From: Gekko japonicus
Taxonomy: Eukaryota
DNA length: 64,000 bases
Direction of reading: 5' to 3'
Assembly (NCBI RefSeq): GCF_001447785.1
Contig: NW_015174861.1
Location: forward strand, 424,136 to 488,135
Positions 18,701 to 63,830 of this stretch are shown in pieces; the stretch's first letter is position 1; every line of letters starts with the position of its first letter. The position numbers and the translations under genes are program-made. The notes beneath the pieces are model-generated. The model saw only the letters and a list, made by a program, of their open reading frames with translations, was not told the origin of the DNA and did no database searches.

Positions 18701-21700
18701 TTCAAGAGCATATTAACCTGAAAAAGAAACTATTTGTGTTAATAAGGTTAATCAATATCTACAGTAATTCATGCCTTTAAAGCATCTTTAAGATGTTATA
18801 AGACTTTTTGATGTAATTGTACTAGTAATTCTCTTATGATGATGCATACTGAGATGGAGGTACTGAACAATGAACAGACCATTTTAATAAACATTTGGGC
18901 TCATTTTCTGGAAAGCCATTGTCAATCAACAACTTGTAATGATTGGGTAACTAACTTGTACCACTGTAAGTATACCTTAAGAAATGAGAGCAAGTCTTCT
19001 GAAGGCAGAAAAATGTTCTTCAGGCCAAGCAAGCTTTCAATGCAGCCAGTGTCACACTTTGGAATTTTTAAGAGAGGCAGCTCAGTAGTCTTACAACTAG
19101 CAGGATCATCAGTGCACGTAATCTGCTCCATGCCACATGCCTTCTTGTTTCCTCCTAACAAAAGTTTTAAGTTAAACACACAGAAATGATAAACTATGAT
19201 AGCTGTATAGCAAGTTCAACCATTTTATTCAAAGCAAGCAATTCCTAGCATAGTTTTAAATACAACTATTTCAAATACAGAGTTTCTTTTCTCTATGAGA
19301 TGGCTGTTTGCTTCTGCAAGTCTAAACTGCTCTTCTTGCAGCTTCACTCTGTCATCTCAACCACTGCCCAAGTAGTCTGACTCCTCCCGCCAACATAGCA
19401 GCCATATATGAAAGACCAAGAGGAAGCAGGGTGAGCAGGCAGGCAAAAAAACCCCCATGCCTGCTACTGGTTAAGCTCAATTGACCCACCACCTCTCTCT
19501 GTAAGCATAAATATGTTTATTTATAAAAACCGAATTTGCTGTATTTTATAGTTGTTATACAGGGCTCCAATCAAAAAGCGGAACTCTAACATTCCAAATT
19601 GTTTCTTACTTCCATCAAATATAAAATACAAATTGCATATCATTGTTTTCCACATCTCCATTATATTATGTATCAGTACCTTCCACTGAACCTCAGTATT
19701 CCACATTCCTGCAAATTTCATCTTATTTCCAGTTCTTTACACATCTACTGTCCAACTAGGGACTCATTTAGAAAATAAAATCTTGTTTCCAAATGTATCT
19801 CAAAACGTTGTGAACCAGAACTGCCTGAATATATTACTGAAAAGCTGAAGACATTGTGAGAGTAATATGTAGATAGATTTAAGGTTTTTCCCCTCTATTA
19901 CTAAGTCATACTTACCATGAAGCACTATTTTTTTTCCTTTCAGATAGCCACCTCCACTCCTAACCCAGAACTGTAAATGGAGAATACTTTGTCTGATATC
20001 ACAATTATTTGTAGTTAGCAAAGCAGACAAGTCACCTATATCTGTTCGTAAGTTCTCAGCCAAACACAGAACTTGGAGGTAGCTAGCAACGTTTACCTAA
20101 AATAAAATGATTAGAAATTAACAATACTTAATGTTTAAAAAAAGAAACAGAAGCACTTACTTTTACATGGGTTGGATCTAAGCTCCCACAAATTAAAAGG
20201 ATTTGTGGAAATGGATCATTCTTGCCTTTTCCTTCCTTCAGCATAAAGCTACTGCTGAGGATGGGGGTGGTCTTGAGAACAATGTCATGTGGCACAAGAA
20301 GCTACAGCAAGAAGAGGGAACCGGACAAAATCACCCTGCCTTGCATGAGAGGAAAGGAAAACAAAGTTGTCCTGTTCTCCTTCCTTGCCACATGGCAATT
20401 ATTCTTAACTAGGAATAAGGCTCATTGTGGAAATAAATACAACAAGCTCTAGAAAAAGGCTCTGGGAGAGTGCCAAGGCCTTGGGCACTCAGCGTTAATT
20501 TGCTGTGGTGACCTCAGCAGGGTATAATGACACAGAGTCCACCATTTTCTCCAGAGGAACTGATCTTTGCTACCTGAAGAGCAGTTGTAATTTTGAGTGA
20601 TCTCCACCCCTCACCTGGACATTGGCAACAATGGTTCCCCCAGGAGGAAATGGCTGGTTTGGAGGATGGAGTCTATGGCATTGTACCTGTCTGAGGTCCC
20701 ATCCCTCCTCAAACCACACCCTCTCCAGGTTCCATCCCTCAAATCTCCAGGAATTTCCCACCTGGAGCTGGCAACCCTATCTCCTTCCCAGCCAATTATC
20801 AACCTACTTCCATTTCCCCCTCACTCTTTAGCTTTCCATCTCCCCCTCCACCTGCAGCCTGTTCCGTGCTCTGAAGCCCTGACTGCCATGTCACATTGGC
20901 TGTCATGGGGGGGGGGGATCTCAGCAGGGTATAAGGACACAACCATTTTCTCCAGGGGAGGGGAACTGATGTCTGCCATCTGGAGAGCAGCTGTAATTCT
21001 GAGTGATCTCCAACTCTCATCTGGAGATTGGCAATAATGGTTTCTCAGGAGGAAAAGTAGTCTTTCTCTGCAATGGGGACCAAAGCAGATTACATCATTC
21101 TCCTCCCCCTCTTTTGACTTGCACAACCCTGTGAGGTAGGTTAGACTGAAAGTCTGTGACTGGTCCAAAATCACCCACTCAGCTTCTACAGCAAGAACCT
21201 AGATCTAGCAGACCCTACTCTGAAGCACTGAATGCTACGCCTAGGGTAGCCAACCTCCAGGTGGAGCCTGAAGATCACCAGGTATCACAACTGAACTCCA
21301 GACAACAGATCTCCCCCCCCCGGAGAAAATAACTGCTTTGNNNNNNNNNNNNNNNNNNNNNNNNNNNNNNNNNNNNNNNNNNNNNNNNNNNNNNNNNNNN
21401 NNNNNNNNNNNNNNNNNNNNNNNNNNNNNNNNNNNNNNNNNNNNNNNNNNNNNNNNNNNNNNNNNNNNNNNNNNNNNNNNNNNNNNNNNNNNNNNNNNNN
21501 NNNNNNNNNNNNNNNNNNNNNNNNNNNNNNNNNNNNNNNNNNNNNNNNNNNNNNNNNNNNNNNNNNNNNNNNNNNNNNNNNNNNNNNNNNNNNNNNNNNN
21601 NNNNNNNNNNNNNNNNNNNNNNNNNNNNNNNNNNNNNNNNNNNNNNNNNNNNNNNNNNNNNNNNNNNNNNNNNNNNNNNNNNNNNNNNNNNNNNNNNNNN

Positions 21701-24700
21701 NNNNNNNNNNNNNNNNNNNNNNNNNNNNNNNNNNNNNNNNNNNNNNNNNNNNNNNNNNNNNNNNNNNNNNNNNNNNNNNNNNNNNNNNNNNNNNNNNNNN
21801 NNNNNNNNNNNNNNNNNNNNNNNNNNNNNNNNNNNNNNNNGCCCCAATGAGTTCCTCACAACAGCCACTGAGGGGAAAGTTAGTCCCACACAGGAGGCAA
21901 GCAGGAGAAATGTCTTCGTCAAGAGAGAAAGCTGTTTGCCAGTAATTCTGACAGGGCACAGTGGCTGAAGGGGGAGTGGGCAGGGAAGAGAAGCAGACCC
22001 AGCCCCCAGCCAATGGCATGCGAGTACTTTTGAGTGGCAGCTGATGGGCCAATGGCTGAGGGAGCACATTGCACAGCCAATGGGAGAGCTGCAAAGTGCC
22101 ACTCCACAATTATATATAATGAGAAATGGTCAATCAACACTGGATTTAATCCCCTGTGGACAAACAGTGACTATCACCTAGTGTTCTCAAGACTGTCCAT
22201 TTCTGGAATATATTTTAAGCACTATTCACATTAGCCAAATGTGCAAGTAAATATTTTATTTCTAGAAAATATTCTAATGACTAAAAATTAATTTTGATGC
22301 ATGCTGCATTATTTTAAAACCTCTGCTGTCATTGAGGAATTGTTATGCAAAGTTAGCAAGATCAATCATTGCTGGTACAACAGAAATGATGAGATGAACG
22401 CACAACAGCCCAGGCCAGAGGGTGTCTGAACAGCCTTGCATATATTTAAAGAAATTAATCAAGCTTACCTAAGTTAAAATACATTAACATTGATTCATAT
22501 GAGCAAAATAGACTACAAAGTGCTTTTGTACAATAAAAAATTGTACAATTATTACAGAATTACTTACATATAAACTTTTAACAATCTACAAATTAAACTG
22601 TTGTTGCAATAATGATCCATACACTGTTTTCTGTTGTACTAAAGGAATCTTCCATTCCAAAAACTGAAAGACTTACCAAAGAAGGAACAGTGAAGGTGAT
22701 TTCCTCGAACAAGCCATCAAATATTAAGCTGAATGATGGATCTATAGGGAAAAAGTCACAGCTTTTAAGAACAACTTTTCTTCTCAGAGAGAATCAAAAT
22801 ATCTAGAACATAAATGTAGCCCTTATCAATATTATAAATAAAAGTTACAAGAAATTACAAAAATAAATAAAAGAAAATCAGGAGGCAGGGTCACAAGGGG
22901 AAAAGATAAGTCAATTTGCAGTGCTTCCCAGTCCAAACAACTCCTGACTTTAGCATTATTCCAGAGAACAAGTAGCAGAAATAAATGCAACACACATATA
23001 TGCATTAGCAAAACAGTTTGCTTAGGGAAGGAAATTGCATCTGAAACACAGGGATAGAGGAAGACAGAGGTAGAAAATGAGAGATGAGTTGCAGGCAGAT
23101 CAGTGGAGAAAGAGAAGGGATAACTAATTATGCTGTAGAAGGAAGAGAAGCAGTCATGCTGCTTCCAAAAAAGAGCAGTCAGACATTTCTAGCATGTACA
23201 TGAGCGAGGTATGAAAGTTACAGCCTTTCCTTACTGTTATTCTCCAAGATTCTGAGCAGAAAAATAGCCAGAGGGAGAAGGTTAAACAGCCTCCCCTTCT
23301 CTTTAAGACTGTGGTCTCCTAAAATGCTTCTGGTTTAAAGGGATGGGAGAGGAATCTATAGAACTGCCTCATGTAGTTTCAAGGCCAAATCTTTTTGAAT
23401 GCAGTGGGACTCTCAGAATAACTATGCATACATGATAAAGATGTCAATTCCATTAGGCCATGCATTGCAGCACACTGCCTCCAGAGGATCCGACTTGTCT
23501 CAGTACTCAAGACGATGGTGATCCTCTATCACAGTTATGTTTCCATGACAAGTATGGAGACTTGAGCACATAGAAACAGGAGGAGGCTTAGACTTGGAAT
23601 CCAGTTACAACATCAGAAACAAATTAGCAATAAGAAGGATCTTTATTCAGTACAGAGCTTAGCATAGACTACCAGAGATTACAAAAATAACAAAGGCTAG
23701 GGCTGTTTGCCTTAACTAAACATTAATGATTCATAGTTACCACGTCAGGAGTATTCCTCAGTCCAAGATAGTCCAAGTACCAAGGGATTTTGAAGGGAAA
23801 TCCCATTTTTGCACAGCCATGTGCTCCAAGTCACAAAGCAACTCTTTGTCTCTCAAGAGGCAGCATTTCAGGTACAATAAAACAGACAATGACAAGAGGA
23901 GGAAGGGAGCTAAGCAAGAGAGCTCACTCTCATAGGGATCAAACAATTATACCCCAATTCCAGTCACAAATTAGATGTGACCATCAGCCAATTGTGAGTG
24001 GGCATGGGTGTGCCCAATTGTTGGTTGTCATAGCTGCAACATAGGATTGGCTAGAAGTTTGGAGCCCCTCCTGCAGTCAGGTGACCCAAACTCCAGCTAC
24101 TTCATTGTGTACGTGACTGGTCGCATGTGGGCCAGAAAGTGTAGCCATGAGGTCTGGTGTTTGGCATGAAAGTGTGAAAGAATGTGGGTTTATGGCATGG
24201 CTATTGAGGCCATGTGGCCTCACCAATTGGCTTGCAACAGGAAACAAGACACAGCATGTTATCAAAAGACACCACAGGAGAAGGCATGTGAATATAGAAC
24301 CAATATTTCTATACAGACCATATGTCAGAAGTGACTTGGTGGCATATAACACACACACGCACACACTTTTAAACATCTATTCAAAGACAACTTGGAGAGA
24401 CTGGCTTGACAATCAGATCTGGAACAGTGATGGAAAAGCTTATCTTACATTTTCCTCAAAAAAATCTAGCTCAGCACCAGGGAGTGTTCTTTTAAAGGTA
24501 GCAGCAGTGACCAACTTTACCCTGACCTGGCACAGAACTTAACCTCTGCAATACAATCTCTAGTAATCTCTCAACTGGACATCAGTAACTTTAGATGGGG
24601 CTTTCCTTAAGGACATTTGGGAGGTACAGTTGGTTCGGAAGACAGCAGCCTGATTAACTGCTGGTGTTAGCTGCAGAGAACATATTACTCTAGTTTCCCA

Positions 24701-27700
24701 AGATGCATTGGCTTCCAATTGCTTCCAGGCTAAATTCAGGATGTTGGTGATTACTTCAGAGCTCTTTATATCATTGGCTTCCCTCACACAATCCTACCCA
24801 TTTCCTGAGATCTGCAGGGGATAATCTGCTGATGGTTCCATTTAACATCAGGCCGGTAGCCACTTCCAGGCAAACACTATGTTCTGTAGACTGCAGGTTA
24901 TAGAAAATGTTGTCTTTTTTGTGGGATCTTATAGTCTTTAAGAAAGTATTACTTTGCCTTTTGTTCAGGCTGTTGATGTTTATATGTTTGGCTGACTGAT
25001 TAGGTTTTGTTGTGTATAGGTTTCATTTTTGTCTGAATTGTAGATATCTTACTGTTTTATTATCCTCTGTAGCTTAGTCTGGCAACTTTAGTGGAAAAGT
25101 GAATTCTGAACCTTCTACACAAGACTGTGTCTGGTCATGGAGAAAGAAAGGTTAAATAAAATAAATGATGTGGGAAAACATGTCCTGTCTTGCCAAAACT
25201 GCATACAGAAAATGAAGAAGCTAGTAGAATTATGTAGTACAAGAAACTTAAAAAGAGCAGAAGGAATAGGAATAAGATGGGTTAAGGAGGGGCTGTTTAT
25301 AAATAATAATACTTTGAAATCCATATTCCTTAACACAGATATGAATGTCTGAAGTACTCCATGGTGTCCAGGACCTCTAAGAGCTACAATAGAGCCTGTA
25401 ATGAAACACTAGTCACACCGTACATCTCCTGAAATATCAACCATTCACCTAATTAAGCCCCAAAAGAAAATGTTCAAAGCATATATTCAATATGATTTTA
25501 AAATATTCACAAGAGAGAACTTTTTGGAAATTATTATTACTCACCATTAGTAGTAAGAATGACAGGTCTCTTAGTAGTGGCCATGAATGTCTTTATTGCA
25601 TTTAGAAATCCAACATCTTCATCTAGTATTATATCAACCTATGAGAATGAAAGACCTTTAGCCATGCAATTGCTCTACAGAGTTTAAAGTATGTGTCTTA
25701 GCCAATTAGATAAGGCTCTGGTCCATTATTTCTTTATTTCTCAGAGTGGAGAGGGGAGTGTCAATAGTCACCAGAGAATCTTAAGGTAAGTTGAATCTGT
25801 TCTTCGTACTTAAAGATAGCAACAGAGCACATGGGCACATGGGCAAAAGTATGACAAGGATGCATTAGGAGTGCTTTCTTTTGTTTCTCTTTGAGACAAT
25901 CAATGCTGGTCAGCTGTACACACTCTTGCCTCCCTGAACAGCATTGAACCATTTGCTTGAGAGCAGAGCAGGAAATTATTCCATACCTCTTCAAAGAGGA
26001 TGAGAGAAGTTGCACTTTTTTTACTTGATTCCTCTTCTCCAGTTCCCCTTTTCATTGATTTAATCTGATCTTTATCTTCAGATAAGCTTTCATTTCTTTC
26101 TGCATAGATAGAGCATACACGTACAAACAGAAAATAAAGATCCAGTCAAAACCAGCAGTGAACTACAAAATGTATCAAGCTTTCAAAAATCAATTTAGAC
26201 ATCTGTGATACCTGACCACAGGCACATATATACCAGAAGTGCTTTGTAGTTCCATTCCTTGTAGTTCAGATTTTACAGTGATCTACAAGTAGTATCCAGG
26301 CAGCATATGATTAGTTTGCTTAACCTTAAGTACATTTTCTTACTCCCTGACTTACCTGGTCCCCTGTGGTGATTAACAATCTCCTCAAGGTGATCAAGCC
26401 CATCCTCACAGCAGAACAGAGTCATTCATGCAGAACACACAAATATCATTGTCCCTCTATTCAGGGTTGAAGGGTAGAAGGGAGACAGAGCTCTTTGCAC
26501 AGCCTTTATGGGGGGGATATGGCTTTCATGTCCTGATCTAGTCACTCAATTATGCTACATGAGAGTAAAAGCCACCCAGCTTTCATATCCCTGCTCTGTA
26601 ATAAACATATGCTCATTCTCCAACATGAGCTAGAAGGTCTAAAACTAGAAGGGAGAATGGAAAAACTGTGCATGTAGCTTTCATAGTATGGCCCCATGAC
26701 AGCAAGTGGATAACTGGCAGCAGCAACAGCACAGGTGAAGAGAGGAAAGAGCAGTCACACACCTGCCCAACAATTAAGACTGCAATAGATGATTGCTTCT
26801 TATGACTGGCCACATACACTGTGCCTTCTACATTTACAAGTATACACTATGATTTTGTTCCCCATCTTCAAATAAGCACATACATGTTATGTTCAAGCCT
26901 ACCTTTGTTGTTTTCTTGCTGTTGTACTTTTCGTTCCTTGGAAGACATTTTGAAATAGCTTGTTAATGTTTTGGGTGCCAAGCTTTGCTTTAATCCAGCT
27001 CTTCTGGGGGAAACTGGAGGCTTCTTTGGAGACCACTCTTTTCTGGGAGGGAATTTTCCTGAAATACCCAGGGTACTTTAGTGTAGAAAACATTAACTTT
27101 CATATTATCCCCATATATTTGCATTACACCGTTTCACATAATTTCTTTTTTCTTTTTTTTTTTTTGAAAATCATATTTATTCTTGAATTGAATACATTTC
27201 ATCATGTATACAAATTCTACTTATAGATATAACAGCTTACAGAGTCTCACAACATCGGATTTGACATTTTAACTTTTCTTTAACCATTTATAGAACGTTC
27301 CCCACCTATTAAAGAATATCGTTGTATCTTTATATTGTAATATTGTGGTGAATTTATCAATTTCAATCATTTCTTGCATTTTAGAAATTAGTTCTTTTTT
27401 CGACGGTATTCCCCCTTGTTTCCAATTCTTGGCAAATAGGATACGTGCTGCTGTAATTATATATCCCAAAACATATTTTTGCTCCTTTGTATATTTCTCT
27501 GGTATCACATTTAACAAAAAGAATTCTGGAGCATATGGTATTTCTATTTCTAATATACCGCCCAGTATTTTATGTACTTTATGCCAGTATCGTTGGGTCA
27601 CAGCGCACCTCCACCACATATGGTAGAAGGTGCCTACATTATTTTTACACTTCCAACAGTTCTTGGACAAATTTGGATACCATTTCGCTAACTTATCGGG

Positions 27701-48700: not shown

Positions 48701-49015
48701 TACTCTATCTCACAGGGTCGGTGTGAGGATAAAATCAGGGGGGCCACCTATTCTGCCTCCTTCAGACAAGCGAAATAAAAAAGGAAGTTAAAATAATAAA
48801 GAGGAAATGTCCTAAGCCGTGTTTGATTTCTTAACTTAAAAGTTCTCTTTTGGCCATAGAGCCACCCCGCCCCGTGCAAAGCTGCCCCACCAAATGCAAG
48901 AGCGCTGGGCCGCGGCCAGTCCTCATGCCCCTTCCGAGCCCCCGTCTCTCACCTGAGCATCCCCGTCCTTGTCGGATGGGGAAGCCGCCGTGGCCATGGT
49001 CACCCTCCCCACCAT
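15663..49015 (-). CDS. ATAD5: ATPase family AAA domain-containing protein 5 (Elg1-like PCNA unloader large subunit), 23 coding exons, 1751 aa
   Basis: MVGRVTMA...PCKKR start; KRKSNVVIAEEELELAVLE; LWTEKYQP; Walker A GPPGIGKT; IFEVNAS; LILFEEVD; TTKRPVILTTND; C-terminal RRFLHYLEG...AADFP. Exon lengths sum to 5256 nt with all phases compatible. Confidence 0.97.
15902..16069 (-). CDS. ATAD5: ATAD5 exon 22
   Basis: EYLPTLRNICKSE..KEQGKTKRR. Confidence 0.92.
16728..16928. mobile_element. hAT-type MITE (201 bp)
   Basis: TIRs cagtgttccctctaagc / gcttagagggagcattg; 8-bp TSD gtggtggc / gtggtgac. Confidence 0.85.
17610..18424 (-). CDS. ATAD5: ATAD5 exon 21
   Basis: 815-nt open exon HEITSKEEW...VDFIYSNLE...LDDSDLF. 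Confidence 0.93.
18976..19154 (-). CDS. ATAD5: ATAD5 exon 20
   Basis: PKCDTGCIESLLGLKNIFLPSEDLLSFLK. Confidence 0.9.
19916..20096 (-). CDS. ATAD5: ATAD5 exon 19
   Basis: VASYLQVLCLAENLRTD...CDIRQSILHLQFWVRSGGG. Confidence 0.93.
20500..21340. mobile_element. Cluster of non-autonomous DNA transposon fragments (tagggttgcca...tggcaacccta family) plus a minus-strand SINE at about 21040-21240
   Basis: Repeated accattttctccagg...aactgat modules shared with the copy at 51110-51322. Confidence 0.6.
21341..21840. other. Assembly gap (500 N)
   Basis: Run of N. Confidence 1.
22677..22741 (-). CDS. ATAD5: ATAD5 exon 18
   Basis: DPSFSLIFDGLFEEITFTVPSL. Confidence 0.9.
25545..25638 (-). CDS. ATAD5: ATAD5 exon 17
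   Basis: VDIILDEDVGFLNAIKTFMATTKRPVILTTN. Confidence 0.93.
25987..26099 (-). CDS. ATAD5: ATAD5 exon 16
   Basis: KKSATSLILFEE. Confidence 0.9.
26903..27058 (-). CDS. ATAD5: ATAD5 exon 15
   Basis: SPKKPPVSPRR...LAPKTLTSYFK. Confidence 0.85.
27147..27966 (-). mobile_element. Young 5'-truncated L1 with an open ORF2 C-terminus, poly(A) tail and 16-bp TSD
   Basis: 234-codon ORF (KMFHRWY...CWKC...GTFYHMWWRC...ITAARILFAKNWK); TSD gtttcacataatttct at 27131-27146 and 27967-27982. Confidence 0.95.
28290..28845. mobile_element. hAT-type MITE carrying an internal CT-rich microsatellite
   Basis: TIRs caggggtcattt / aaatgacccctg; perfect 8-bp TSD tttataac. Confidence 0.9.
28415..28570. repeat. (CTTT/CCTT)n polypyrimidine tract
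   Basis: Directly visible. Confidence 0.9.
29129..29270 (-). CDS. ATAD5: ATAD5 exon 14
   Basis: IFEVNASCQRSGRQILSQLKEATQSHQVDKQG. Confidence 0.93.
29361..29506 (-). CDS. ATAD5: ATAD5 exon 13 (Walker A)
   Basis: LCNTVLLIGPPGIGKTAAVYACAQELGFK. Confidence 0.95.
29782..29861 (-). CDS. ATAD5: ATAD5 exon 12
   Basis: WLSEWKKR. Confidence 0.88.
31303..31399 (-). CDS. ATAD5: ATAD5 exon 11
   Basis: EDVLWTEKYQPQNSNELIGN. Confidence 0.92.
32363..32638 (-). CDS. ATAD5: ATAD5 exon 10
   Basis: Basic KRKRK...KRRKQ exon, phase 1 to 1. Confidence 0.85.
33018..33162 (-). CDS. ATAD5: ATAD5 exon 9
   Basis: LRNCLLEEIKASNPQF. Confidence 0.88.
33346..33503 (-). CDS. ATAD5: ATAD5 exon 8
   Basis: CLMWKLTPPSCPLL...SLGEFS. 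Confidence 0.88.
34114..34295 (-). CDS. ATAD5: ATAD5 exon 7
   Basis: FKAKRKFLMSGLPESLKRQIAKKAA. Confidence 0.9.
35404..36418. mobile_element. Non-autonomous DNA transposon with a nested MITE (35641-35903) of the 16728 family
   Basis: Outer ends tagggatgtgca / tgcacattacta; the inner copy has the same TIRs as 16728-16928 and a 57-bp tandem duplication. Confidence 0.7.
36803..36884 (-). CDS. ATAD5: ATAD5 exon 6
   Basis: KEKVSSLFRKKVQK...DES. Confidence 0.82.
37196..37260. repeat. Compound (AT)n(GT)n microsatellite
   Basis: Directly visible. Confidence 0.9.
37776..37917 (-). CDS. ATAD5: ATAD5 exon 5
   Basis: ESVIILDS...LNDVLGKK. Confidence 0.85.
40617..40784 (-). CDS. ATAD5: ATAD5 exon 4
   Basis: ISKAKKLIEKAKA...PLRRSSRQQ. 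Confidence 0.88.
41379..41433 (-). CDS. ATAD5: ATAD5 exon 3
   Basis: MKFTRISTSEGFSPQSIK, phase 2 to 0. Confidence 0.85.
43330..43700 (+). mobile_element. L2 LINE 3' fragment
   Basis: RGRAFSVVALTSWNALS...FHRSCKAELFRLAF resembles the L2 ORF2 C-terminus. Confidence 0.7.
44262..45931 (-). CDS. ATAD5: ATAD5 exon 2
   Basis: 1670-nt open exon PCKKRR...KSPIR. Confidence 0.95.
48575..48790 (+). mobile_element. tRNA-derived SINE (Squam3/MIR-like)
   Basis: A-box-like gcagtggttaa, B-box gagttcaaacc, core ctcacagggtcggtgtgaggataaaa. Confidence 0.6.
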
Positions 49016-49620
49016 CTGCTTCCCAGTAACGGCCGGAGAGAGATCCCTCAGCCCCGGCAAAAGGTCCTCGGAGTCGTCGCCATGAGGGACAGTCACCCCA
49101 CTCTCCCCGCCCGCCTTCGCAAGCCCTCGGTCTCTTTCCTTCGACCACTCGGCCGGGCCCTGTCAGAAATTCGCGCGCGGGGGAACCAGCGGGCAAAACA
49201 GAAAAGCGCGCGCGGGACGTATTCGGAGCCCCGTGACGGCAGGCGAGGGGCGGGGCGTGCTCCTCGGGAGCTCACGTGACAAGGGGAGCGCAGGCAAGGC
49301 TGGCACCGCACCCGTTTCCCCTGTCACGTGAGCTCCCGCCCTCCGTTACATGAGATTTTATTCATAGGGCATATAGCTGTTGGTCGTTTGATCCCAGCAG
49401 TAGCGGCGGCGCCTCCCTCTCCCTAATCGCCTTTGGTTTTTCGAGGGAGTCGGCCTTGTAATGACAGCTTGACTACGGTATCTGTCAAGATTACTTTTCC
49501 CGCCTGTTGCGACCAGAGAGGAGTAGGCGGGGCCAGGCAGGGAAAGAAAGGAAAGAGAGCAAATGAGCCAAACGAGAGCCCTTGGGCGGGTAACCGTAGT
49601 AGTCTGAAAGAGCAAGGGGA
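48850..49620 (-). promoter_or_regulatory. ATAD5 CpG-island promoter with E2F-like sites, a GC box and paired E-boxes
   Basis: ttcgcgcgcggg (~49170) and aaaagcgcgcgcggg (~49202); ggggcggggc; tcacgtga at 49272 and 49324. Confidence 0.8.
48953..49015 (-). CDS. ATAD5: ATAD5 exon 1
   Basis: MVGRVTMATAASPSDKDGDAQ|gtgaga inside a CpG island. Confidence 0.9.
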
Positions 49621-50130
49621 CAAGTTCGAGTCCAGTGGCACTTTTAAGACCAACAAAGTTTTAATTCAAGGTGTCTGAAGAAATGTACATGCACAGGAAA
49701 CCTTATAACTTGAATAAAACTTTGTTGGTCATCAGGGCTTTTTTTGTAGAAAAAGCCCAGCAGGAACTCATTAGCATAATAGGCCACACTCAACAGCAGA
49801 AACTCATTAGCATATTAAGCCATACCCATGATAGCACAGTTCGTTAGCATATTAGGCCACTCCCCCATGTCACCAGAAGTGTGGTCATCCAGCCACACCC
49901 ACCTTTTGTTTCTTATTCTGTTTACTTTGTTGTCAAAACCCTGGGCTTTTTTTGTAGCAGGAACTTCTTTGCATGTTAGGCCACATGTAGCCAATCCTAA
50001 TGAGTTTCTGCTGTTAGGTGTGGCCTATTATGCTAATGAGTTCCTGCTGGGTGTGGCCAACTCAGGAGCCAGCCGGAACACCCCCCAAAAAGCCCTGTAT
50101 AGTCATAAAGGTGCCACCTGACTCGAACTT
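49620..50130. mobile_element. Inverted Penelope terminal repeats with a hammerhead remnant, interrupted by hAT MITEs (49733-50097)
   Basis: gaccaacaaagtttta..ttcaag / cttgaataaaactttgttggtc flank ctgaaga...gaaa; the inverted match resumes after the cagggctttt...aaaagccctg insertion. Confidence 0.7.
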
Positions 50131-52859: not shown

Positions 52860-53560
52860 CAACTTTTCTCTCCCCGCCCCCAATACAGTCTGAATCAAAG
52901 CTTCCACGCCGTGTTGTATTGGTACGGCATGGCTTTTTCAAAAACTCTTGTTCTTCGACTGAATGTACTAGGAAGATAAGTCCTAAAGCTGAACTATTGC
53001 GAGAGGGAACCATCCCGATTTAGAGAGAAAGAGAAGAAAACAAAAGAGGAACCCGTCCTCCCCCGCCCTTTTTGGCTAGCCAGATACCCGGATGTTGTTG
53101 GCTTCCGGGTGTGAGGCTGCTGCCAATAGTAGGTCAGCCTGCTGTCGCGGCCTGGTGTCGCGGCAGTACACTGTCGGTGAGGGGGAATGGAGCTCGAAAC
53201 CGAGGCGCTCTTGCAAGAGGCTCGCGAGAGCGTCGAGGCGGCGCGGACCTACCGCCGGGAGCTGCAGCAGCGCCTGAAGGGGCTGCACCTGGCACGCCAA
53301 CAGGTAGGGGGTGTGGGCGTGGCTGTCCCGGGATCCATGCGGTGGAGGCAGCAGCGAGGATGTGGGATCCCGTCCGTGCGCTTTCCCGGCCCTTTTCGCA
53401 TCAGACCCCTTCAGGCGAGGCGAGGCTTTCGGTCGCAATCCTGTGCGCGCTTACCCGAGAGTAAGCCCCACTTGATAGAACGGGGGCTTACTTCTGAGTA
53501 AACTGGCATAGGATTACGCTGTCGGTCTCTCTCGCCTTCCGGACTCGGACGTGTTGCTTG
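52860..53560 (+). promoter_or_regulatory. CRLF3 CpG-island promoter
   Basis: GC boxes ccccgccc (~52872, ~53060) and ETS motif gcttccggg (53101) in CpG-dense sequence. Confidence 0.75.
53187..53303 (+). CDS. CRLF3: Cytokine receptor-like factor 3, exon 1
   Basis: MELETEALLQEARESVEAARTYRRELQQRLKGLHLARQQ|gtaggg. Confidence 0.93.
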
Positions 53561-56500
53561 CGGCACTTTCAGCCTCTTTGGGCTCATCCTCTTCTCCCTC
53601 CAACGTTATTTGCAAGCGGCTATTTTACTCGTGACAGTCGGGTTTTGAAACACTTGCCCCGGTTATCTTCCCGGGAGGGCTTCTGCGTCTTTAGCAGCGG
53701 CTGTGCAAACAGAAATTCCACAGGGGAAACTTTTCCCGGTGTCGTTTCTTTCAGTCTCCTGGTATGCCTGAGTTACACATCCCAGAGAATTAGGTAGAAT
53801 GAAATATGGCTCTTTGGACTGTGGGAGATGTGGTCCAGCTTTTAATTTTCCTTCGTGTAAACGAGAAAGTCTATCTACTTGTGTTGCTGTACTGTTTTTC
53901 TATTTGTAGAGAGCTTTTTAGATAGGAGAAAGTTGGAAAATCCTCCACGATTCTTTCTCCACCTGCAGCCTGAAGTGGGGCAGGCCATTGTTTCACCTCA
54001 GTTTTCTGCCACCTCAAGCCCACCTCATTTTCCTGAGTGTGTAAAAAAGGCCTAATATGCTGCCTCACATGTGGCACTGCCAAGTTCAAGGGAGTGCTAA
54101 GTAATTTCCAAGACAGTAGGGCTGCAAAGCTATATGTACTTATCTGGGATTAAGCCCTAATGGATAGAAAAGGGTTTACTTCTAAGTAAATATTCACAGC
54201 TCACGCTGTGGGTTGACTATTTTGTATTGGGTTTTGTTGTGGTAGTCGATTCCCATCAATTCAATCCATAGGAAGACAGAAGATGGTTAACTGATAGATA
54301 TCAAAAGGTGTAGAAAGAATAATTCTATGGTGTTTATGAAGGCTGATGTCCTTTATGTTCTGGCCAGGACTGGGCTATGGAGATTTTTTGGGATCCCTTG
54401 CCTTGTTGCTAATTTCCAGAAGGGATACATAGTGAGCTATATCACTGACTAGGACATTGTGAAGAAGAATAAGCACTGTGTCAATTTAAATGTGTGTTTG
54501 GAATCCATACTGCGTCAAGGGAGTGGCATGGAGCTGATCTGTATTGCCTTAAAAACACTCATATGCAAAGTTGTTTGTTTCCATCCTTGTATAAAAGTGG
54601 GATTTATTTGGCTGTGATGAGAAGTCCAAGCCCAGAATACAGTTAGCACAAATGGAGGTGGCTTTCTTTAGATACAGAAGTTTCAAAGGTTTTGAAATAA
54701 CTGCTAGCTCCTGTACTCCTTCAGGTTTTAGATTTGTTCTCCTATCCCATTTTAGAAATTCAAGGCAGGCTGCTCCTTTCCAAAAGCAGACTATTAAAAT
54801 TCATTTCAGAGTTATTATTTATAAATTATGTAAACTTATAAAAGCCGTTCTGGTGAGTGTGACCTTGCATTAGAATAATAATTAAATATGAAATAAGTGC
54901 ATGCAGAGCTGCTATTATAACCCTGTAGGTATTTATTCAGTTTCAGTGTATTTTCTCCCCAAGACAGTTGGTATATTTGCCTCTAGCAAATTCAATACAT
55001 AAACAATAAACTTAATTTAAAAACTTTGTTTCATTGTATCATCCTAAAACGTAATCTGGAGATCCTTTCTCCTGTTGTGCAATGAATTGCTTAGCAGAAT
55101 CTCCCACTGTTGTTTTGCAGGCATCTCTGAGAATTCTTTGTAGATACAAAAGCACGTGTGGCCAGAAGGGAAATCTGCAGAGCACATGCTTCTCTGAGTT
55201 ACGGCCAATGAGCTAGTTGGATTGCTTTAGCATGTACAGCTGACCTAGTATACTGACTGGGTGTTTAATTTATCCCAGTGTGTTATCAGGACCTGGACAC
55301 ATAAAAACATCTGTGTGATAAAGATTAAGGAAACAAAGGGCAAGAGAAAGTGTTGGGTCAGAAAGCTTTCTGCTATTCTTTCCCCCCAGTTATTTTGGCA
55401 ATGCAGCGCTTAATGAGCTGGAGCTCATTCCCCAACTTAATGAATCAGATCTCTCTTGGAAGCAGATAATACTAGAGATAGTGAAGCCGTACCATATGTC
55501 TTTCCAGTTATATACAAAAAATTGGTTAGATCTGGCAAGATTGAATACATCTGGGATTGTATCACTGAGGGGAAAACATGGATATGCTGAGTTACTGATG
55601 TAACTGTTGACTCTGTGGAACGTGGATGGCCCATGGTTTAGTTGGTATCTTTTGCCATCTCTGTTGAGTAAATGGTGATGAAAAAGTCTGGTTTCAGGGA
55701 TACATAAGGATGATGGATGAGTTACAGCAGGACTAAATTTTGAATTTTATTGTCACGTCTGGTTGTAGTTTCTACATTGGAAGAAATGTGCTATGTATTT
55801 ACTTATTCTAGGGGAGAATGAAGGAATATACGATGAAAGTTTGAAATCTGCCTGTGTTTTTTAGGAGGCAGGTATGCAGTCCTATGCCTTCAGTTAGTAT
55901 GCACAATGGGCCAAGAAGATTCATTTCATCCATCTAATTGAATTTCCCAGCCCCACCTTTATTGCAGAACTTCTAACTACAGCAGTTTGCTGCTGAGCCA
56001 TCTTGGATTCTTGGCACCTGGTCTTACCAGCTGTTTTGCTAGTGCCAGATAAATGTTAGCTGGAAATATCTAGTTCGTATTTGGCTTTGTATTTGCGCAT
56101 CTAATCCAGACAATTGTAGGTACATTAGTATCGTTATTTTCATTTGGAGGCTTTCATGAATAGCCATATGGTGATTCTGAGATCAAAAGTAGATGTGAAT
56201 TTTGAGAACACAGAGAGCTAATGTAGTGCGGTAGACAGAGCGCTGGATTTGACTTAGGGAAATAGGGATTCCTTGTCAACTATAATGATATTTGGGCAAC
56301 CTTGAGCTAACCTCTCTTTAACAATCTGATTTACCTTACCACATTGTTTCCCCAGTGTTAGATACTTTAGGAATCCTGGGGCTGCAGAGCTAGCAGTGAA
56401 AGTATAGATATTGAAAGGATCTGATGTCATATACTTGAGCCTTGCCTCACTCAGATTACATTATTGTGGGTCCTTATTGGTTATGAGCTCCCTAGACCCT

Positions 56501-58227
56501 GGGCTTCAGAACATTTCTCAAAACCAGGAATTTTGCTGACAAATCCAACTGCCACATAACTGTGTTTAAATGTTGATTTTGTTAATGAATAAATTTGCAA
56601 GCATACCTAGCCAGACCTTGCAAATAAGTTCACAGATGTTACTGGTCCACTATTTGTTATTAGCTCGTGTGTCTGTCATACTACTGTTCATATTTATAAC
56701 CTAAAAGAAAGACAATGGAATAATAATTTAGTAATTATTTTTTAAATAGTGATCTGGAGGATTGCTGTTGCTGATCAGGAAGTGGCTGTTTGCACCTAAT
56801 GCTGTGGCTGCCCACAAGGGTTGCATCTGCTCCAGTGTAAGCAATGCTATATAGCCTTCTGTGGTCTGTTTGGATTGTGGACTTCAGTATCCATGTCTTT
56901 TGCAGGATTAACAACAAACCATGGTTTATTATTCTAGCAATGCACCTGGTGGTTGCGTGTTCCCTTTCCCTTCTTCTCTCTCTTATTCTGTGTGGCTAGG
57001 AAATTAAACACTTCTACTTTTATAGGAAACCATTGTTCGTTGTTTTCTCCAGATCACAAACTGTGGTTTGTTTGTTCTCTACCTTAGAAACCAGTGTTTT
57101 GGGATCTTGATTTTGAGATCAGAAAACAACAAACTATGGTTTGCTGCAGAAGCATTTCATTTCTTACCTGTGAACAAGGTGATGAGCCCATGGATTCTCC
57201 GGATTGATTCCTGTAATGACAAACAACGCCTCGTTTTTTCATGCAGCTCATCCCAGTAAATTCATACTTGTGTATTGATGTTGTAATATTGCACCAGTGC
57301 AATGGACTTAATGTTGCTACTCTTGCATCCCACCCCGTGTGCCATACCCTCTTCACCCATATGTGATTTCCTTGTCCAAGTAATTGCAATGTGCAATGGT
57401 GCCTACAGTTTTGCTGTCTTGAGCTGCTGCAACGCCTCTCGCTCTTTTCTAAAACAAATATATACACTATAATGAGTAGTGGTGATGCAACCAAAACCCC
57501 TTGCATTTGATCCTGTGCTCTCTTTTGCCTTGTACAGCAGGCTATAGGTGCTGCCTGCAACAATACTAGAAGACTCAAAGATGGAGTTTCTCCCTTCCTG
57601 TCGACTCTGTTTCATGTATGCACCCAAACACTTCCTTTTTTTGTCTGATGTACTGAAATAACAAATGAAGAAAAGTCAAACTGCACAGGGACTACAAAGC
57701 CCTTTGAATGCAGCTTAAAAAGGAAGTTAGTTATTCATAACCCAAGAGCATCCTGTGTCAGTACTTGTGAAGATCAGAAGTTACATCTGGTTAACATCTC
57801 TGCAGTCTTTCTGTGTGAGAAGTTTGCCTCTGTCTTGTGGGGAATTTCTCACCAGCTGAGCCATTTTATTCTTTTCACCAAACTATATTCAGTTTTCAAG
57901 CTCTCTTCTTACAGTAGCTGTAAAACTAAACAGAATATTTAACTGCGATAGATTCTCTTTTGATAGCCTTATAAAACAAAATGTCGTGATTGTTGGCTTG
58001 CATTTGGAGATAAATTTCAACCTGTTACGGTGGAGAGAAAGTAACAAGTGAATTGGGTCAGTACCCTCTCTATCCAAAAGCAGGAGCTCCATAGTCTCCT
58101 GGAGGAAGTAGATAGGACAGCCAGATGTGCACACTTTTTCAGATACAAGGAAATGGAAATAGAAATAACAATTATATATAGAGAGGGTGGATAGTGAATT
58201 AGCATATGGAATAATGAAGGTGTTTTT

Positions 58228-60300
58228 TTGGCTCCCCGAAGGGGATTTTTTATTGCATTTTTCTATAAACTACAACGAAAAAAGGGAGGGGGAAATTACA
58301 ACTAAGGGAGAAAGGAAAGAAAACCACTAAAAACCCAAGTATACCACAGGAAGTGGTGGCTTCAAAAGGGAATTAGATATGCATATGGAGCAGAGGTCCA
58401 TCAGTGGCTATTAGCCACAAGGTATAGATAGGGACTCTGGGGCAAGTGATGCTCTGTCTTCTTGGTGCTTGGGGGGGGGGGTCAACAGTGGGAGGGCTTC
58501 TAATGTCCTGGCCCACTGGTGGACCTCCTGATGGCACTGGTATTTCTGGCCACTGTGTGATACAGAGTGTTGGACTGGATGGGCCTTTGGCCTGATCCAA
58601 CATTGGCATCTTGTACAACAACTTGTATCAGTGTTAGTCTAAAATGCTATAGTTACATTGAACATGGTCGTTTGGGCTATATTATTTGTCTATGACCAAT
58701 AATTTCACTGTTTAAAGAGACACAAGAGCACCATCAATTAATAAAAGCTTATAAGCCATAATTCAGAGTTCTTCAGCCTTCATTTTTAAAAATCTTTTCT
58801 AATCCTCAATTGATAATCGCGTTTGGGGGCAGCTGCCCCCTTCTCAGAAGCAGAGTCCTCATCGGAAGTAGCAATAGAAGAGACAGTTCCATCGCTAGGT
58901 TTACTGTCCTCATCTTCCTTGCCGTCCTCACCCGACTCTCCCAGTTGCAGTCTCAGAAACTCACACGCTTTAGAAACAGAATCAATTTTTTCTTTTTTGT
59001 CCTTAAGTTTGAAAAGGACGGCTTTGGGAATCATCCATCTATAAGGAATGCTGTTTGTTTGTAAGAACATAATCAAGTCTTTATATTTTTTCCTCTTCTT
59101 CCGTATTTCAAATGGGATGTCTTTTAGGATCTTGATGATATTGCCTCTAATTTTCAGGGGTACTCCTGATGTTGCTTTCAAAATTTGGTCCCTCACATGT
59201 CTCTTCGAGAATCTTACCACTGTCTCTCCAGGCAGATTATTCTTCTTAATGTATACGGAATAGGCTCTATAGACCACATCTATTTCACTTATAAGATATT
59301 CCGCTTTTAAATCTGCAATTGGAGCCAATGCATCACTCAGTATTTGTTTTAGATTCTTGTCTTTGGCCTCAGGGACTCCTTGAAACCAGAGAACAAGGTT
59401 GACTTTCTCCATTTGTATCTGCAAAAGCTGAGATTCATCTGAAACTTGCTTCTTTTCCAGCAACTGCACCCTTTTGTTCACCTTTTTAGATTTGGCATCC
59501 ATTTCATTCAACTTCTCAGCTGTTTGCTCCGACATTTTTGTAGTTTCATTCAATTGGAGTTGCTGAGCTGCAAAGTTCTGGTTTAATGCTGTCAACTGTT
59601 GATTGATATTTGTCATCTGGTCCAGTAGAGGGTGCAAAGAGTCCGCTAACAGCTTAGAAAACTCCGTGGCATCTTCTGCTCAAGGGCTCATACTTCCAGG
59701 TGGTTTAAGTTTCGCTTGCTTTTCTTTCTCCATTTTCCTCAGCGCCATGTTTGCTGGTTGTTTATTTTTAAAAGAGAACTTGCTGAAGTCTCTGCAATTC
59801 ACCCAAACGCTTATTGGCACTCTAGTGTATTCCTCAAAACAGATTTCAACGCTTTTACTTCAGCTCCCCCTTGAAAAATTGCTACTTCGTTCATGCGTAT
59901 GGGAGGGCCCCCTCCCCCGCTCACTAATCTTGTTGTTCCCGGGGGAGCTTTCTTTTATAATCCCAGTGTTTTTGCTTAACTCGACTCACTGTTCATTGTT
60001 GGTCTGAAGACCTCGCCAAAGGTATGTGAAAAATGCCCGATCTCCAAATGCTTGTCCCGGTTGGTGGCTCGAGTTCCATTACGGACGCACAATGGCTGGA
60101 CCGTCGGGGGGAAGAGCGCCTCAATTCCCCAGCATCACGCTGGCGAAGAGGCCACCCTTCAAAGCCCCATGGCTAGGAGCCTATCGCAAAGGCTCTGGGG
60201 GGGTGGCAAAGAATGCCCCCCCCAGCCGCTGGCGCGCGGATCACCTCCCCAGGAGCTACCAGGGACGCGTCCGCTAGTGGGTCGCCATAAACCGGAAGTC
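58228..60300 (-). mobile_element. ORF1-only L1-derived retroposon (half-L1/HAL1-like) with TSDs
   Basis: GC-rich 5' UTR starting gacttccgg; ORF1 59748-58786 (coiled coil, LWFQGVPE, ILKDIPFEIRKKRK, YRWMIP; one TGA at 59680-59682); short 3' region, AATAAA, A tail; TSD taatgaagg(tg/ca)ttttt at both ends. Confidence 0.85.
58344..58610 (+). mobile_element. CR1 3' fragment nested in the half-L1 3' region
   Basis: Near-identical to the CR1 3' UTR at about 6967-7250. Confidence 0.9.
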
Positions 60301-61514
60301 TAATGAAGGCATTTTTAACAGATTAAAAGAATCATAAGCTTAGTATATATGGCTATCATCTGTTTGGGTTCAACAGGAAAAACATAGCATAGGTAATAAA
60401 TATGTTAGAATTGGAGACTTGATATATGCTTAATTGTGGAATGGTGAGAGTCTTGTCCCTTCTGATGTTACTGACGTTCATAGTTTGGATTATTCTGATA
60501 TTTTCCCATAGTAATAGCAGTAATAGAAGATAGAGTGGGAAAATTTTCATTACTATTATTACGTATATATGTAATAGTGACTTGGGGCCGACATCTGAGA
60601 ATATCTAAATCTGCAGATTGGGGCCACACAGACACAAAACAGATTTTCCTGCAAACAGATTGTCCTTCACAGACAGCATACTTACCGTGATTCAGGAGAG
60701 CTGGCTCAGAGCGGCTCCCAGATGGATGTCAAAAACGTTTTTAGAATTAATGCCAGATCTCACTTTTTTCCCCCCTGTAGTTGACTTAATTTTTTTGTGT
60801 TACAAATATGTTGAATTGTGTTTCAGTTAAAAAAAATACTCAAATTTCTTTTAAAAACAAACAGATCTGAGAGGGTTGTGTCTGCCTGCAGTGTTAGCAT
60901 TTAAGCCAACCCTGAACTGTTGTGGACTGAAAAGAATTACTTCTGCAGGGCCATTCTAATTCTGCACATGGTTGAGTTTCCTGCATTTTCTGCAGAAATT
61001 TTTGGTGTTTGAATTATGAGCTAGCTCCTCAGACTCAAGAAAACAGTCTGGGTTTAATTTTAGCTTTCTATACCAAAGTATATTTGAACAGATAGGTTAT
61101 TCTAATTCTGTTCTATTGTGCTAAATGGTTTTGAGAGCATTCCAAAAACACGCCACATTACTAATAAAAAATATTCTTGTTGTTAACTTCTGCTGACTGT
61201 ATGGATAAAATGTGCAGGTAGGACTGCATTTACATCAGATTACATCTGATGGATTTCAGAGGGAGTTACTTATAGGCAAGGTTATAAAAGTGCATACTGG
61301 TGAAAGCAATCTTTTGCACCAAGATACCTCCCCATTGACCTGTGAAAATGTTGGTGCATTGGCAAACAAAATAGGGAATGTTGGAGATGAAGGTCGTAGT
61401 TGGCTAGATGCGCTGGGAGTAAGCAGAGCTCCAGTAGTGCAGCCAGAACCTTGAGGGCTTGTCTTGGGTAGAGAATGAGCAGTACATGTTGAACAAAATC
61501 GAACAGGATAATAT

Positions 61515-63476: not shown

Positions 63477-63830
63477 TCATAAGAACATAAGAAGAGCTCT
63501 GCTGGATCAGACAATGGTCTGTCTAGTTCAGCATCCTGTCTCACACGGTGGCCACTTGGTTTCTCTGGAGGGCCAGCAACAGGTCATAGAGGTGAAGGCC
63601 TTCCCCTGATGTTGCCTCTTGGTCCTGGGATGCAGAAGTTTACCACCTCTGAATGTGGAGGTTCCTGTTAGTCACCATGGCCAGTAGCCACTGATAGACC
63701 TATCCTCCATGAATCTAATCCCCTTTTAAAGCTGTCTATGCCTGTAGCCATCACTACATCCTCTGAAAGCAAATTCCACATTTTAGTCACTGACTGAGTA
63801 AAGAAGTATCTTCCTTTGGCCATCCTGAAT
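63477..63830 (-). mobile_element. CR1 3' end
   Basis: cataagaacataagaa terminal repeat and CR1 3' UTR. Confidence 0.85.

What the first reader, a model, noticed from the sequence alone, without database searches (positions are those of the whole stretch)
58212..60316. ORF1-only 'half-L1' retroposon inserted by L1 machinery in CRLF3 intron 1
Seen: a ~2.1-kb element with a CpG-rich 5' UTR, a 320-codon L1 ORF1 with a single stop, only about 270 nt of own 3' sequence, AATAAA and an A tail. It is bounded by a 16-bp TSD, taatgaagg(TG|CA)ttttt, ending at a TTTT/AA L1 endonuclease site. The TG versus CA difference is what opposite-strand decay of one CpG would give. There is no endonuclease or RT. 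26 nt after the ORF1 stop an ATG (58759) reads MAYKLL, which may be the stump of ORF2. Known: ORF1-only HAL1 elements arose from L1 in mammals and are mobilised in trans. Inference: this may be an independently evolved squamate half-L1 family that supplies its own RNA chaperone and borrows ORF2.
Basis: partly seen in the sequence, partly recalled or inferred. Interest (0 to 1): 0.7.

Follow-up and report, generated by a model that had tools for sequence, protein, structure and literature searches.

The report
Long-lived lizard half-LINE-1 jumping-gene family
This is a dead copy of a large, old family of lizard jumping genes that keep only the RNA-packaging gene of LINE-1 and likely borrow the copying enzyme from full LINE-1s; the design is known from mammals, but here near-identical intact copies suggest it is still moving and can be tested.

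Summary
Confirmed and much larger than one copy. The element (minus strand, 60300-58228) is a decayed member of a genome-wide ORF1-only L1-derived family: 28 of 29 nearest copies share the ORF1-to-tail junction, a 22-nt tail word occurs 1,379 times, and 0 of 179 family copies have ORF2 behind ORF1 (21 of 24 autonomous L1s do). Family ORF1s form one clade (100/98), fold like human ORF1p, are only 33-57% identical between lineages and about 30% to autonomous L1s, and are under purifying selection (shared changes dN/dS 0.28, private 1.1). A young subfamily (1.84 kb, mostly 99.6-100% identical, intact 308-aa ORF1) and young intact L1s coexist. Most lineages end in a G-C hairpin between AATAAA and the A tail, with different but paired sequences; autonomous L1s and two family lineages lack it. 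The 'MAYKLL ORF2 stump' is wrong: that ATG is private to this copy. Same design as mammalian HAL1, likely of separate origin; not found in my paper searches, Repbase/Dfam not checkable. This scan noted the family before at other loci of this genome; the family-wide tests are new here.

The parts
60301..60316 (.). target-site duplication, 5' copy
   Evidence: 14 of 16 identical to 58212-58227; chance 2 of 3000
60292..60300 (-). conserved 5' terminus GACTTCCGG
   Evidence: a motif of this kind was found upstream in 92 of 161 family copies with enough flank; TTCCGG-type starts in young autonomous L1s; GGACTTCCGGTT reported for zebrafish L1 (PMC5381506, passages)
59749..60300 (-). 5' UTR, CpG-rich, likely internal RNA polymerase II promoter
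   Evidence: CpG o/e 0.72; first 207 nt 68% identical to the young subfamily; promoter role inferred from L1 biology
58786..59748 (-). L1-type ORF1 (coiled coil, RRM, CTD, acidic tail, basic end), 320 codons, broken by one TGA at 59680-59682
   Evidence: profile of 46 homologues hits human ORF1p E=4e-15; model pLDDT 86 matches 2yko E=9e-11
58761..58771 (-). conserved (G/A)ACTCTGAAT motif just after the ORF1 stop; the ATG behind it (58759) is private to this copy
58614..58785 (-). 3' UTR, proximal part
   Evidence: aligned in all 29 sibling loci
58344..58613 (+). nested, antisense 3' fragment of an abundant RT-bearing LINE (CR1 type by recall); replaces 9 nt of the host element, no TSD, no tail repeat
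   Evidence: absent from 28 of 28 siblings that cover the site; longer copies carry RVT_1, E=5e-36; reads continue into a (TTCTTATG)n tail
58230..58343 (-). 3' UTR, distal part: TTGGGTTTTTAG motif, pyrimidine tract, AATAAA (58254-58249)
   Evidence: 88-97% identical in 28 of 29 siblings, the 29th runs into an N gap
58233..58245 (-). terminal hairpin TCCCC-TTC-GGGGA between AATAAA and the A tail
   Evidence: sequence; predicted -7.2 kcal/mol; paired variants in other lineages
58223..58229 (-). remnant A tail (7 nt, 5 shared with the TSD)
58212..58227 (.). target-site duplication, 3' copy

Best explanation
The element is a dead copy of an old, multi-lineage, ORF1-only ('half-L1') retroposon family that is likely transcribed from its own 5' UTR, likely coats its RNA with its own ORF1 protein, and likely borrows ORF2p from full-length L1s to insert by target-primed reverse transcription. 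Shown: family status, absence of ORF2, L1-type TSDs and A tails, one ORF1 clade, purifying selection on ORF1 in the masters and neutral decay in copies, a young intact subfamily, young intact L1s in the same genome. Inferred: (1) ORF2 was lost once at the base of the clade; (2) ORF1p acts in cis, which is why selection keeps it (a trans-only protein would be free-ridden on); (3) the donor of ORF2p is the genome's L1s; (4) the G-C hairpin next to the A tail helps the RNA compete for ORF2p, as the Alu stem does in vitro, but is optional because two lineages lack it.
For: Family: 28 of 29 nearest DNA hits run ORF1 -> same ~300-nt tail; 1,379 exact matches to a 22-nt tail word, control 0; of the first 30, 22 have ORF1 upstream, 8 are cut inside the 3' UTR, 0 have ORF2. 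No ORF2: 0 of 179 family copies with at least 700 clean nt downstream have an endonuclease start, against 21 of 24 autonomous ORF1 loci. One clade: 100/98 support, stem 0.43. Selection: in 30 DNA-picked copies, CpG columns left out, private changes dN/dS 1.07 (ts) and 1.15 (tv), changes shared by 3 or more copies 0.28 and 0.29, Fisher p=2e-11; open full-length frames at 33-57% identity between lineages; young vs L002 lineage dN 0.14, dS 1.7. L1-type insertion: exact TSD of 11 nt or more in 76 of 153 copies (control 5 of 153), 11-21 nt, site pyrimidine|A-rich (T at -2 in 44, C/T at -1 in 58, A at +1 in 60 of 76); autonomous L1s show 14-18-nt TSDs of the same type. Recent activity: 19 of 19 fetched young loci carry a 308-aa ORF1, 15 of 18 at least 99.5% identical to L280 (picked for equal protein score); 78 exact matches to its 25-nt tail; five pairs or trios of L1s at 99.5-99.9% identity, several with intact ORF2. 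One chimera: L334 is a young full L1 whose end is replaced by 68 nt identical to a family ORF1 copy plus a long poly(A), inside one 17-nt TSD. ORF2p binds an RNA stem next to poly(A) (PMC10830416, passages).
Against: No direct test of trans-mobilisation or of a cis role of ORF1p. No autonomous ancestor was found: closest ORF2-bearing ORF1s are 26-41% identical and family UTRs give no blastn match to autonomous L1 ends beyond low-complexity stretches, so the donor and the origin by internal deletion are not pinned. Autonomous L1s were sampled by one Pfam search and two ORF2 searches, top hits only. The hairpin is missing in two lineages (0 of 15 in the L165 type; L351 type by eye), is weak in the youngest (-3.9 kcal/mol), and family tails were scored by picking the best hairpin candidate while autonomous tails were not. 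RNA reads cover the young element but show no start or strand, so intron read-through is not excluded.
Confidence: 0.86

Rival explanations
1. The ORF1-only lineages are repeated short-lived offshoots of an unsampled autonomous L1 clade, and the selection on ORF1 happened in those autonomous parents.
For: Autonomous L1s were sampled only through top hits; the assembly is fragmented; HAL1s arose several times in mammals (PMC5753468, passage).
Against: 0 of 179 clade members carry ORF2, across five protein searches and one DNA search seeded from different lineages; lineages 42% identical in ORF1 share 5' UTR and 3' UTR sequence; selection is seen inside one ORF1-only subfamily group; the youngest subfamily has no ORF2-bearing twin among 19 loci.
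Confidence: 0.07
2. The family is moved by the enzyme of another LINE (a Tx1-like or other clade) that recognises the 3' hairpin, not by the sampled L1s.
For: 3' stem-loops are recognition signals of 'stringent' LINEs (own knowledge); none of the sampled L1s ends in such a hairpin (0 of 36, 25 of them from one family).
Against: 0 of 30 hairpin-tail loci have any ORF2 upstream; poly(A) tails, TSD length and site match the L1s; the L334 chimera joins family RNA to an L1; hairpin-less lineages also spread.
Confidence: 0.05
3. ORF1p is kept mainly for a trans role, such as joining or poisoning L1 ORF1p trimers to divert ORF2p, or because it benefits the host by damping L1.
For: Kojima suggests such proteins multimerise with those of the autonomous partner (PMC5786205, passage); truncated ORF1 proteins can suppress L1 in trans (PMC5605252, title and abstract start only).
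Against: Copies decay neutrally (dN/dS about 1.1), so there is no host-level selection on copies in bulk; the coiled coils are only about 30% identical to L1 ORF1p; a trans-only benefit would favour ORF1-less cheats.
Confidence: 0.12
4. One-off internal deletion or premature polyadenylation of a full-length L1.
For: Such events are known (PMC4859970, passage).
Against: 28 of 29 siblings share the junction and tail; 1,379 tail matches.
Confidence: 0.01

Closest known systems
HAL1 (half-L1) of placental mammals and marsupials (Smit 1999; Bao and Jurka 2010, not held, seen only as cited in PMC5753468, PMC5786205, PMC3627910, PMC4859970, PMC13756887)
   Same: L1-derived, encodes ORF1p only, multi-copy, poly(A) and TSDs, ORF1 coding capacity kept over long times (29-44 Myr in guinea pig per PMC3627910 passage).
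   Different: Reptile host; ORF1 about 30% identical to the genome's own L1 ORF1s and 17-19% to human ORF1p, so likely a separate origin; at least seven lineages as far apart as 33-57%; a subfamily at 99.6-100% identity with intact ORF1; a terminal hairpin in most lineages. Whether mammalian HAL1s have such a hairpin or any young family I could not read.
Lizard clade-1-type autonomous L1 (Boissinot and Sookdeo 2016, PMC5381506, passages)
   Same: ORF1 architecture, CpG-rich 5' UTR, short 3' UTR with AATAAA and A tail, TTCCGG-type 5' start, TSD type.
   Different: No ORF2; separate ORF1 clade; longer 3' UTR with pyrimidine tract and hairpin; no alignable UTRs.
HeT-A (Jockey clade, Drosophila) and Ag-Sponge (CR1 clade, mosquito) (PMC5786205, passage)
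   Same: Non-autonomous LINE that encodes only the ORF1-type protein.
   Different: Other LINE clades and ORF1 types; HeT-A is telomere-targeted (own knowledge), this family is dispersed.
Alu SINE as ORF2p template (PMC10830416, passages)
   Same: RNA stem directly before poly(A), the architecture that human ORF2p binds and that was proposed to let Alu outcompete L1 RNA.
   Different: Alu is non-coding and its stem is long; this hairpin has 4-9 base pairs and its role is untested.

Membership tests
HAL1-type (ORF1-only L1 derivative) | ORF1 is of L1 type (coiled coil, RRM, CTD) | tested here: met
   15 of 46 aligned homologues hit PF02994 at E<=0.01, the window's own protein does not
HAL1-type (ORF1-only L1 derivative) | ORF2 absent as a family trait | tested here: met
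   0 of 179 vs 21 of 24; 0 of 30
HAL1-type (ORF1-only L1 derivative) | Dispersed copies with shared ends, A tail and own TSDs | tested here: met
HAL1-type (ORF1-only L1 derivative) | ORF1 coding capacity kept by selection | tested here: met
HAL1-type (ORF1-only L1 derivative) | Mobilised in trans by L1 ORF2p | tested here: inconclusive
   indirect only: TSD and site type, one L1/family chimera
HAL1-type (ORF1-only L1 derivative) | 3' end derived from an autonomous L1 3' end (bipartite, internal deletion) | tested here: inconclusive
   no blastn match to autonomous ends; only a short GACTC-type word after the stop codon is seen in both, by eye
Mammalian HAL1 families by descent | ORF1 groups with mammalian L1/HAL1 ORF1 | not tested
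   no mammalian HAL1 was in the tree; 17-19% identity to human ORF1p against about 30% to local L1s argues against
Autonomous L1 | ORF2 with endonuclease and RT behind ORF1 | tested here: not met
Catalogued Repbase/Dfam family | Match to a library consensus | not testable with these tools
   no repeat library is held

The most novel reading that the evidence does not exclude
Geckos harbour an independently evolved, still active ORF1-only parasite of L1 that has radiated as its own clade for a very long time into thousands of copies, and that beats L1's preference for its own RNA by two means: a self-made ORF1p coat and an Alu-like stem placed against the poly(A) tail. Its intact young copies would be the first living half-L1 on which the role of ORF1p in trans-mobilisation can be assayed.
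Probability: 0.45. Interest if true: 0.75.

Novelty: new member of a known kind. Interest (0 to 1): 0.58.

Why it matters
Why a non-autonomous L1 derivative keeps ORF1, and how it gets round L1's cis preference, has been argued from decayed mammalian copies. A family with near-identical intact copies and coexisting intact L1s makes this directly testable in a cell assay. It also shows that the half-L1 design is not a mammalian oddity, that such a lineage can outlive the L1 it came from and diversify like an autonomous clade, and that it makes up an abundant repeat class that protein databases barely hold (one hit).

Tried and rejected
ORF2 stump (MAYKLL): rejected, ATG private. Hairpin as an obligatory signal: rejected, two lineages lack it. 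Search for an autonomous partner with the same tail or a close ORF1: none among 20 extended PF02994 loci, 30 ORF2 C-terminal loci and 20 long-ORF2 loci. Pfam on the window ORF1: only coiled-coil noise. Word-indexed protein search: nothing for the single protein, one unnamed hit for the alignment; so the range across reptiles is not settled; one named protein with a family-type C-terminus comes from Gekko kuhli (P0144). Protein atlas gave no answer. dN/dS within protein-picked groups (0.09-0.18; singletons 0.34) is biased by the way they were picked and by CpG decay and was replaced. Copy de-duplication merged two neighbouring pairs wrongly and may have left a few true duplicates; counts are good to a few. 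A few of the 76 TSDs (e.g. L007, L025, L248) are likely false. Sequencing-run search: 20 holders of the young element, all organism A, none on record as RNA. RNA lay: three runs of one study cover the young element at about 4-45x with no clear strand or start; the window copy's ORF1 and its flanks have close to no reads. First-look candidate counts (3,176 DNA; 21,000-27,000 protein) are unscored and are not copy numbers. No complex prediction was run: a trimer would pass by likeness to solved ORF1p.
Full report
Observation. The element lies on the minus strand, 60300 to 58228, between two exons of a host gene on the plus strand (53187-53303 and from 62459; the name CRLF3 is recalled). It starts GACTTCCGG, has a 552-nt CpG-rich 5' UTR (o/e 0.72), a 320-codon ORF with one TGA, 286 nt of own 3' sequence split by a 270-nt antisense insert, AATAAA, a 13-nt perfect hairpin and a 7-nt A run. 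The flanking 16-mers match at 14 positions; 2 of 3000 random zone pairs do as well. A contig from DNA run X20 crosses the 3' junction unchanged.

The protein is an L1 ORF1p. Alone it hits human ORF1p weakly (E=0.002); a profile of 46 homologues hits it at 4e-15; the AlphaFold model (pLDDT 86) shows a long helix, an RRM and a CTD and matches 2yko at E=9e-11, 18% identity.

It is a family. A 490-nt probe across the ORF1 stop gave 40 scored hits at 83-100%. Of the 29 other loci fetched, 28 carry the same tail through to the A run and the 29th enters an N gap; none has the nested insert, which replaced 9 nt without a TSD and is the 3' end of an abundant RT-bearing LINE (CR1 type by recall). A 22-nt tail word occurs 1,379 times, control 0; in the first 30 such loci 22 have ORF1 upstream, 8 are cut within the 3' UTR, none has ORF2. 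Searches seeded with diverged copies met by chance in the flanks showed further lineages. After rough de-duplication, 0 of 179 family copies with clean downstream DNA have an endonuclease start within 900 nt, against 21 of 24 ORF1 loci found with PF02994. In a 58-row IQ-TREE tree (20 family rows picked across lineages, 20 autonomous, 18 database proteins) the family is one side of a branch with 100/98 support (root not inferred). Full ORF1s are 33-57% identical between main lineages and 24-34% to three autonomous ORF1s.

Selection. In the 30 copies picked by DNA similarity, CpG columns excluded, private changes have dN/dS 1.07 and 1.15, changes shared by three or more copies 0.28 and 0.29 (242/70 against 50/67, p=2e-11). 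Copies decay neutrally; the masters kept ORF1. Between the young subfamily and its sister, dN is 0.14 and dS 1.7.

Insertion signature. 76 of 153 copies with a located tail have an exact TSD of 11 nt or more (control 5 of 153), mostly 14-20 nt, at pyrimidine|A-rich sites, most enclosing 1.6-1.9 kb. Intact autonomous L1s show the same TSD type and TTCCGG-type starts.

Still moving, probably. About 30 hits had the same score and a 312-codon frame. All 19 fetched carry a 308-aa ORF1; 15 of 18 are at least 99.5% identical to L280 over their main block; several have perfect 15-19-nt TSDs. Their 25-nt tail word occurs 78 times, though some of those copies are older (83-96%). Young autonomous L1s (five pairs or trios at 99.5-99.9%, several with ORF2 frames of 1240-1270 codons) are present as possible donors. 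One of them, L334, ends not in its own 3' UTR but in 68 nt identical to a family ORF1 copy (L351), 16 further nt and a long poly(A), all in one 17-nt TSD. A template switch from a family RNA to the L1 RNA during reverse transcription is the simplest reading; a 3' transduction is not excluded; it is one event. RNA reads of three runs cover the young element at about 4-45x without clear strand or start, which shows presence in RNA, not own transcription.

The 3' hairpin. Most lineages place a G-C stem between AATAAA and the A tail, with different letters that still pair: TCCCC-NNN-GGGGG, CCCTG-(TTT or CTCG)-CAGGG, CCCT-TCG-GGGG, TTCTCTCCT-TTTT-AGGAGAGGG. The last 35 nt fold at or below -4 kcal/mol in 28 of 34, 17 of 21, 17 of 20 and 24 of 25 copies of four groups (15 of 15 in a group picked by the hairpin word itself), at -3.9 in the young group (1 of 14 below -4), and in 0 of 15 of the L165 lineage and 0 of 36 autonomous tails. 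Human ORF2p engages an RNA stem next to poly(A), and this was proposed to let Alu outcompete L1 RNA (PMC10830416, passages). A like role here is a hypothesis; the stem is optional.

What fails. The ATG at 58759 is private to this copy, so MAYKLL is no ORF2 remnant. No autonomous parent was found: ORF2-bearing ORF1s are at most about 41% identical over partial alignments and UTRs do not align.

Mechanism. Shown: architecture, family, clade, selection, L1-type insertions, young copies. Inferred from L1 biology: internal promoter, ORF1p binding its own RNA, capture of ORF2p from an L1, target-primed reverse transcription at T-rich nicks.

Known systems. HAL1 is described as an ORF1-only L1 derivative that arose several times in mammals (PMC5753468, PMC13756887, passages), kept ORF1 for 29-44 Myr in guinea pig (PMC3627910, passage), and is grouped with HeT-A and Ag-Sponge (PMC5786205, passage). 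Bao and Jurka 2010 was not held. Seven searches (listings only) and passages of PMC5381506 and bioRxiv 10.1101/050880 showed no reptile half-L1; subscription papers, supplements, Repbase and Dfam were not seen and could hold it. The host is likely a gecko (family-type C-terminus in a Gekko kuhli protein; inference). This scan had already noted such elements at eight or more other places of this genome, mostly without family tests; a word search for hairpin, young subfamily and selection found no note.

Verdict. Real; works like HAL1 and meets the tested HAL1 features; likely a separate origin. New member of a known kind, raised in interest by its depth, abundance and living copies.

Noticed in passing
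L334 (G000:C2815:427000-434000, minus strand): Young full-length L1 whose last codons and 3' UTR are replaced by 68 nt of a family ORF1 plus poly(A), in one 17-nt TSD; likely a template-switch chimera.
   Followed up: yes
L280-L298: Young 1.84-kb ORF1-only subfamily with intact 308-aa ORF1; several copies have extra letters between TSD and 5' end (L284, L286).
   Followed up: yes
L330-L347: Several young autonomous L1 families with intact ORF2 coexist (99.5-99.9% pairs), ORF1 and ORF2 overlapping or adjacent.
   Followed up: partly
3' UTRs of autonomous L1s (L090-L139, L330-L349) and of the family: A GACTC word shortly after the last stop codon recurs in many autonomous L1 tails and as (G/A)ACTCTG in several family lineages; seen by eye, not tested against chance.
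   Followed up: no
L002, L007, L008, L015, L024, L165, L299, L239/L252: Family copies often lie next to or inside other family or L1 copies, some head to tail, more than seems expected; not quantified.
   Followed up: no
L062/L063 (G000:C4011:91409-96954): Tandem duplication of an autonomous L1 5' UTR plus ORF1, a possible route to ORF1-only units.
   Followed up: no
window 58344-58613, 7001-7251, 63678-63732; L053: Pieces of a young, abundant CR1-type LINE; another family copy (L053) also has one in its 3' UTR, antisense.
   Followed up: partly
window 48751-49750: A second CpG island upstream of the host gene's island (53001-53750); not examined.
   Followed up: no
window 57325: DNA run X20 has a 17-nt insertion relative to the window.
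   Followed up: no
P0004 (XP_015280709.1): A gecko protein named 'apolipoprotein A-IV-like' is an L1 ORF1 relative (E=1e-29), so likely a mis-named transposon frame.
   Followed up: no
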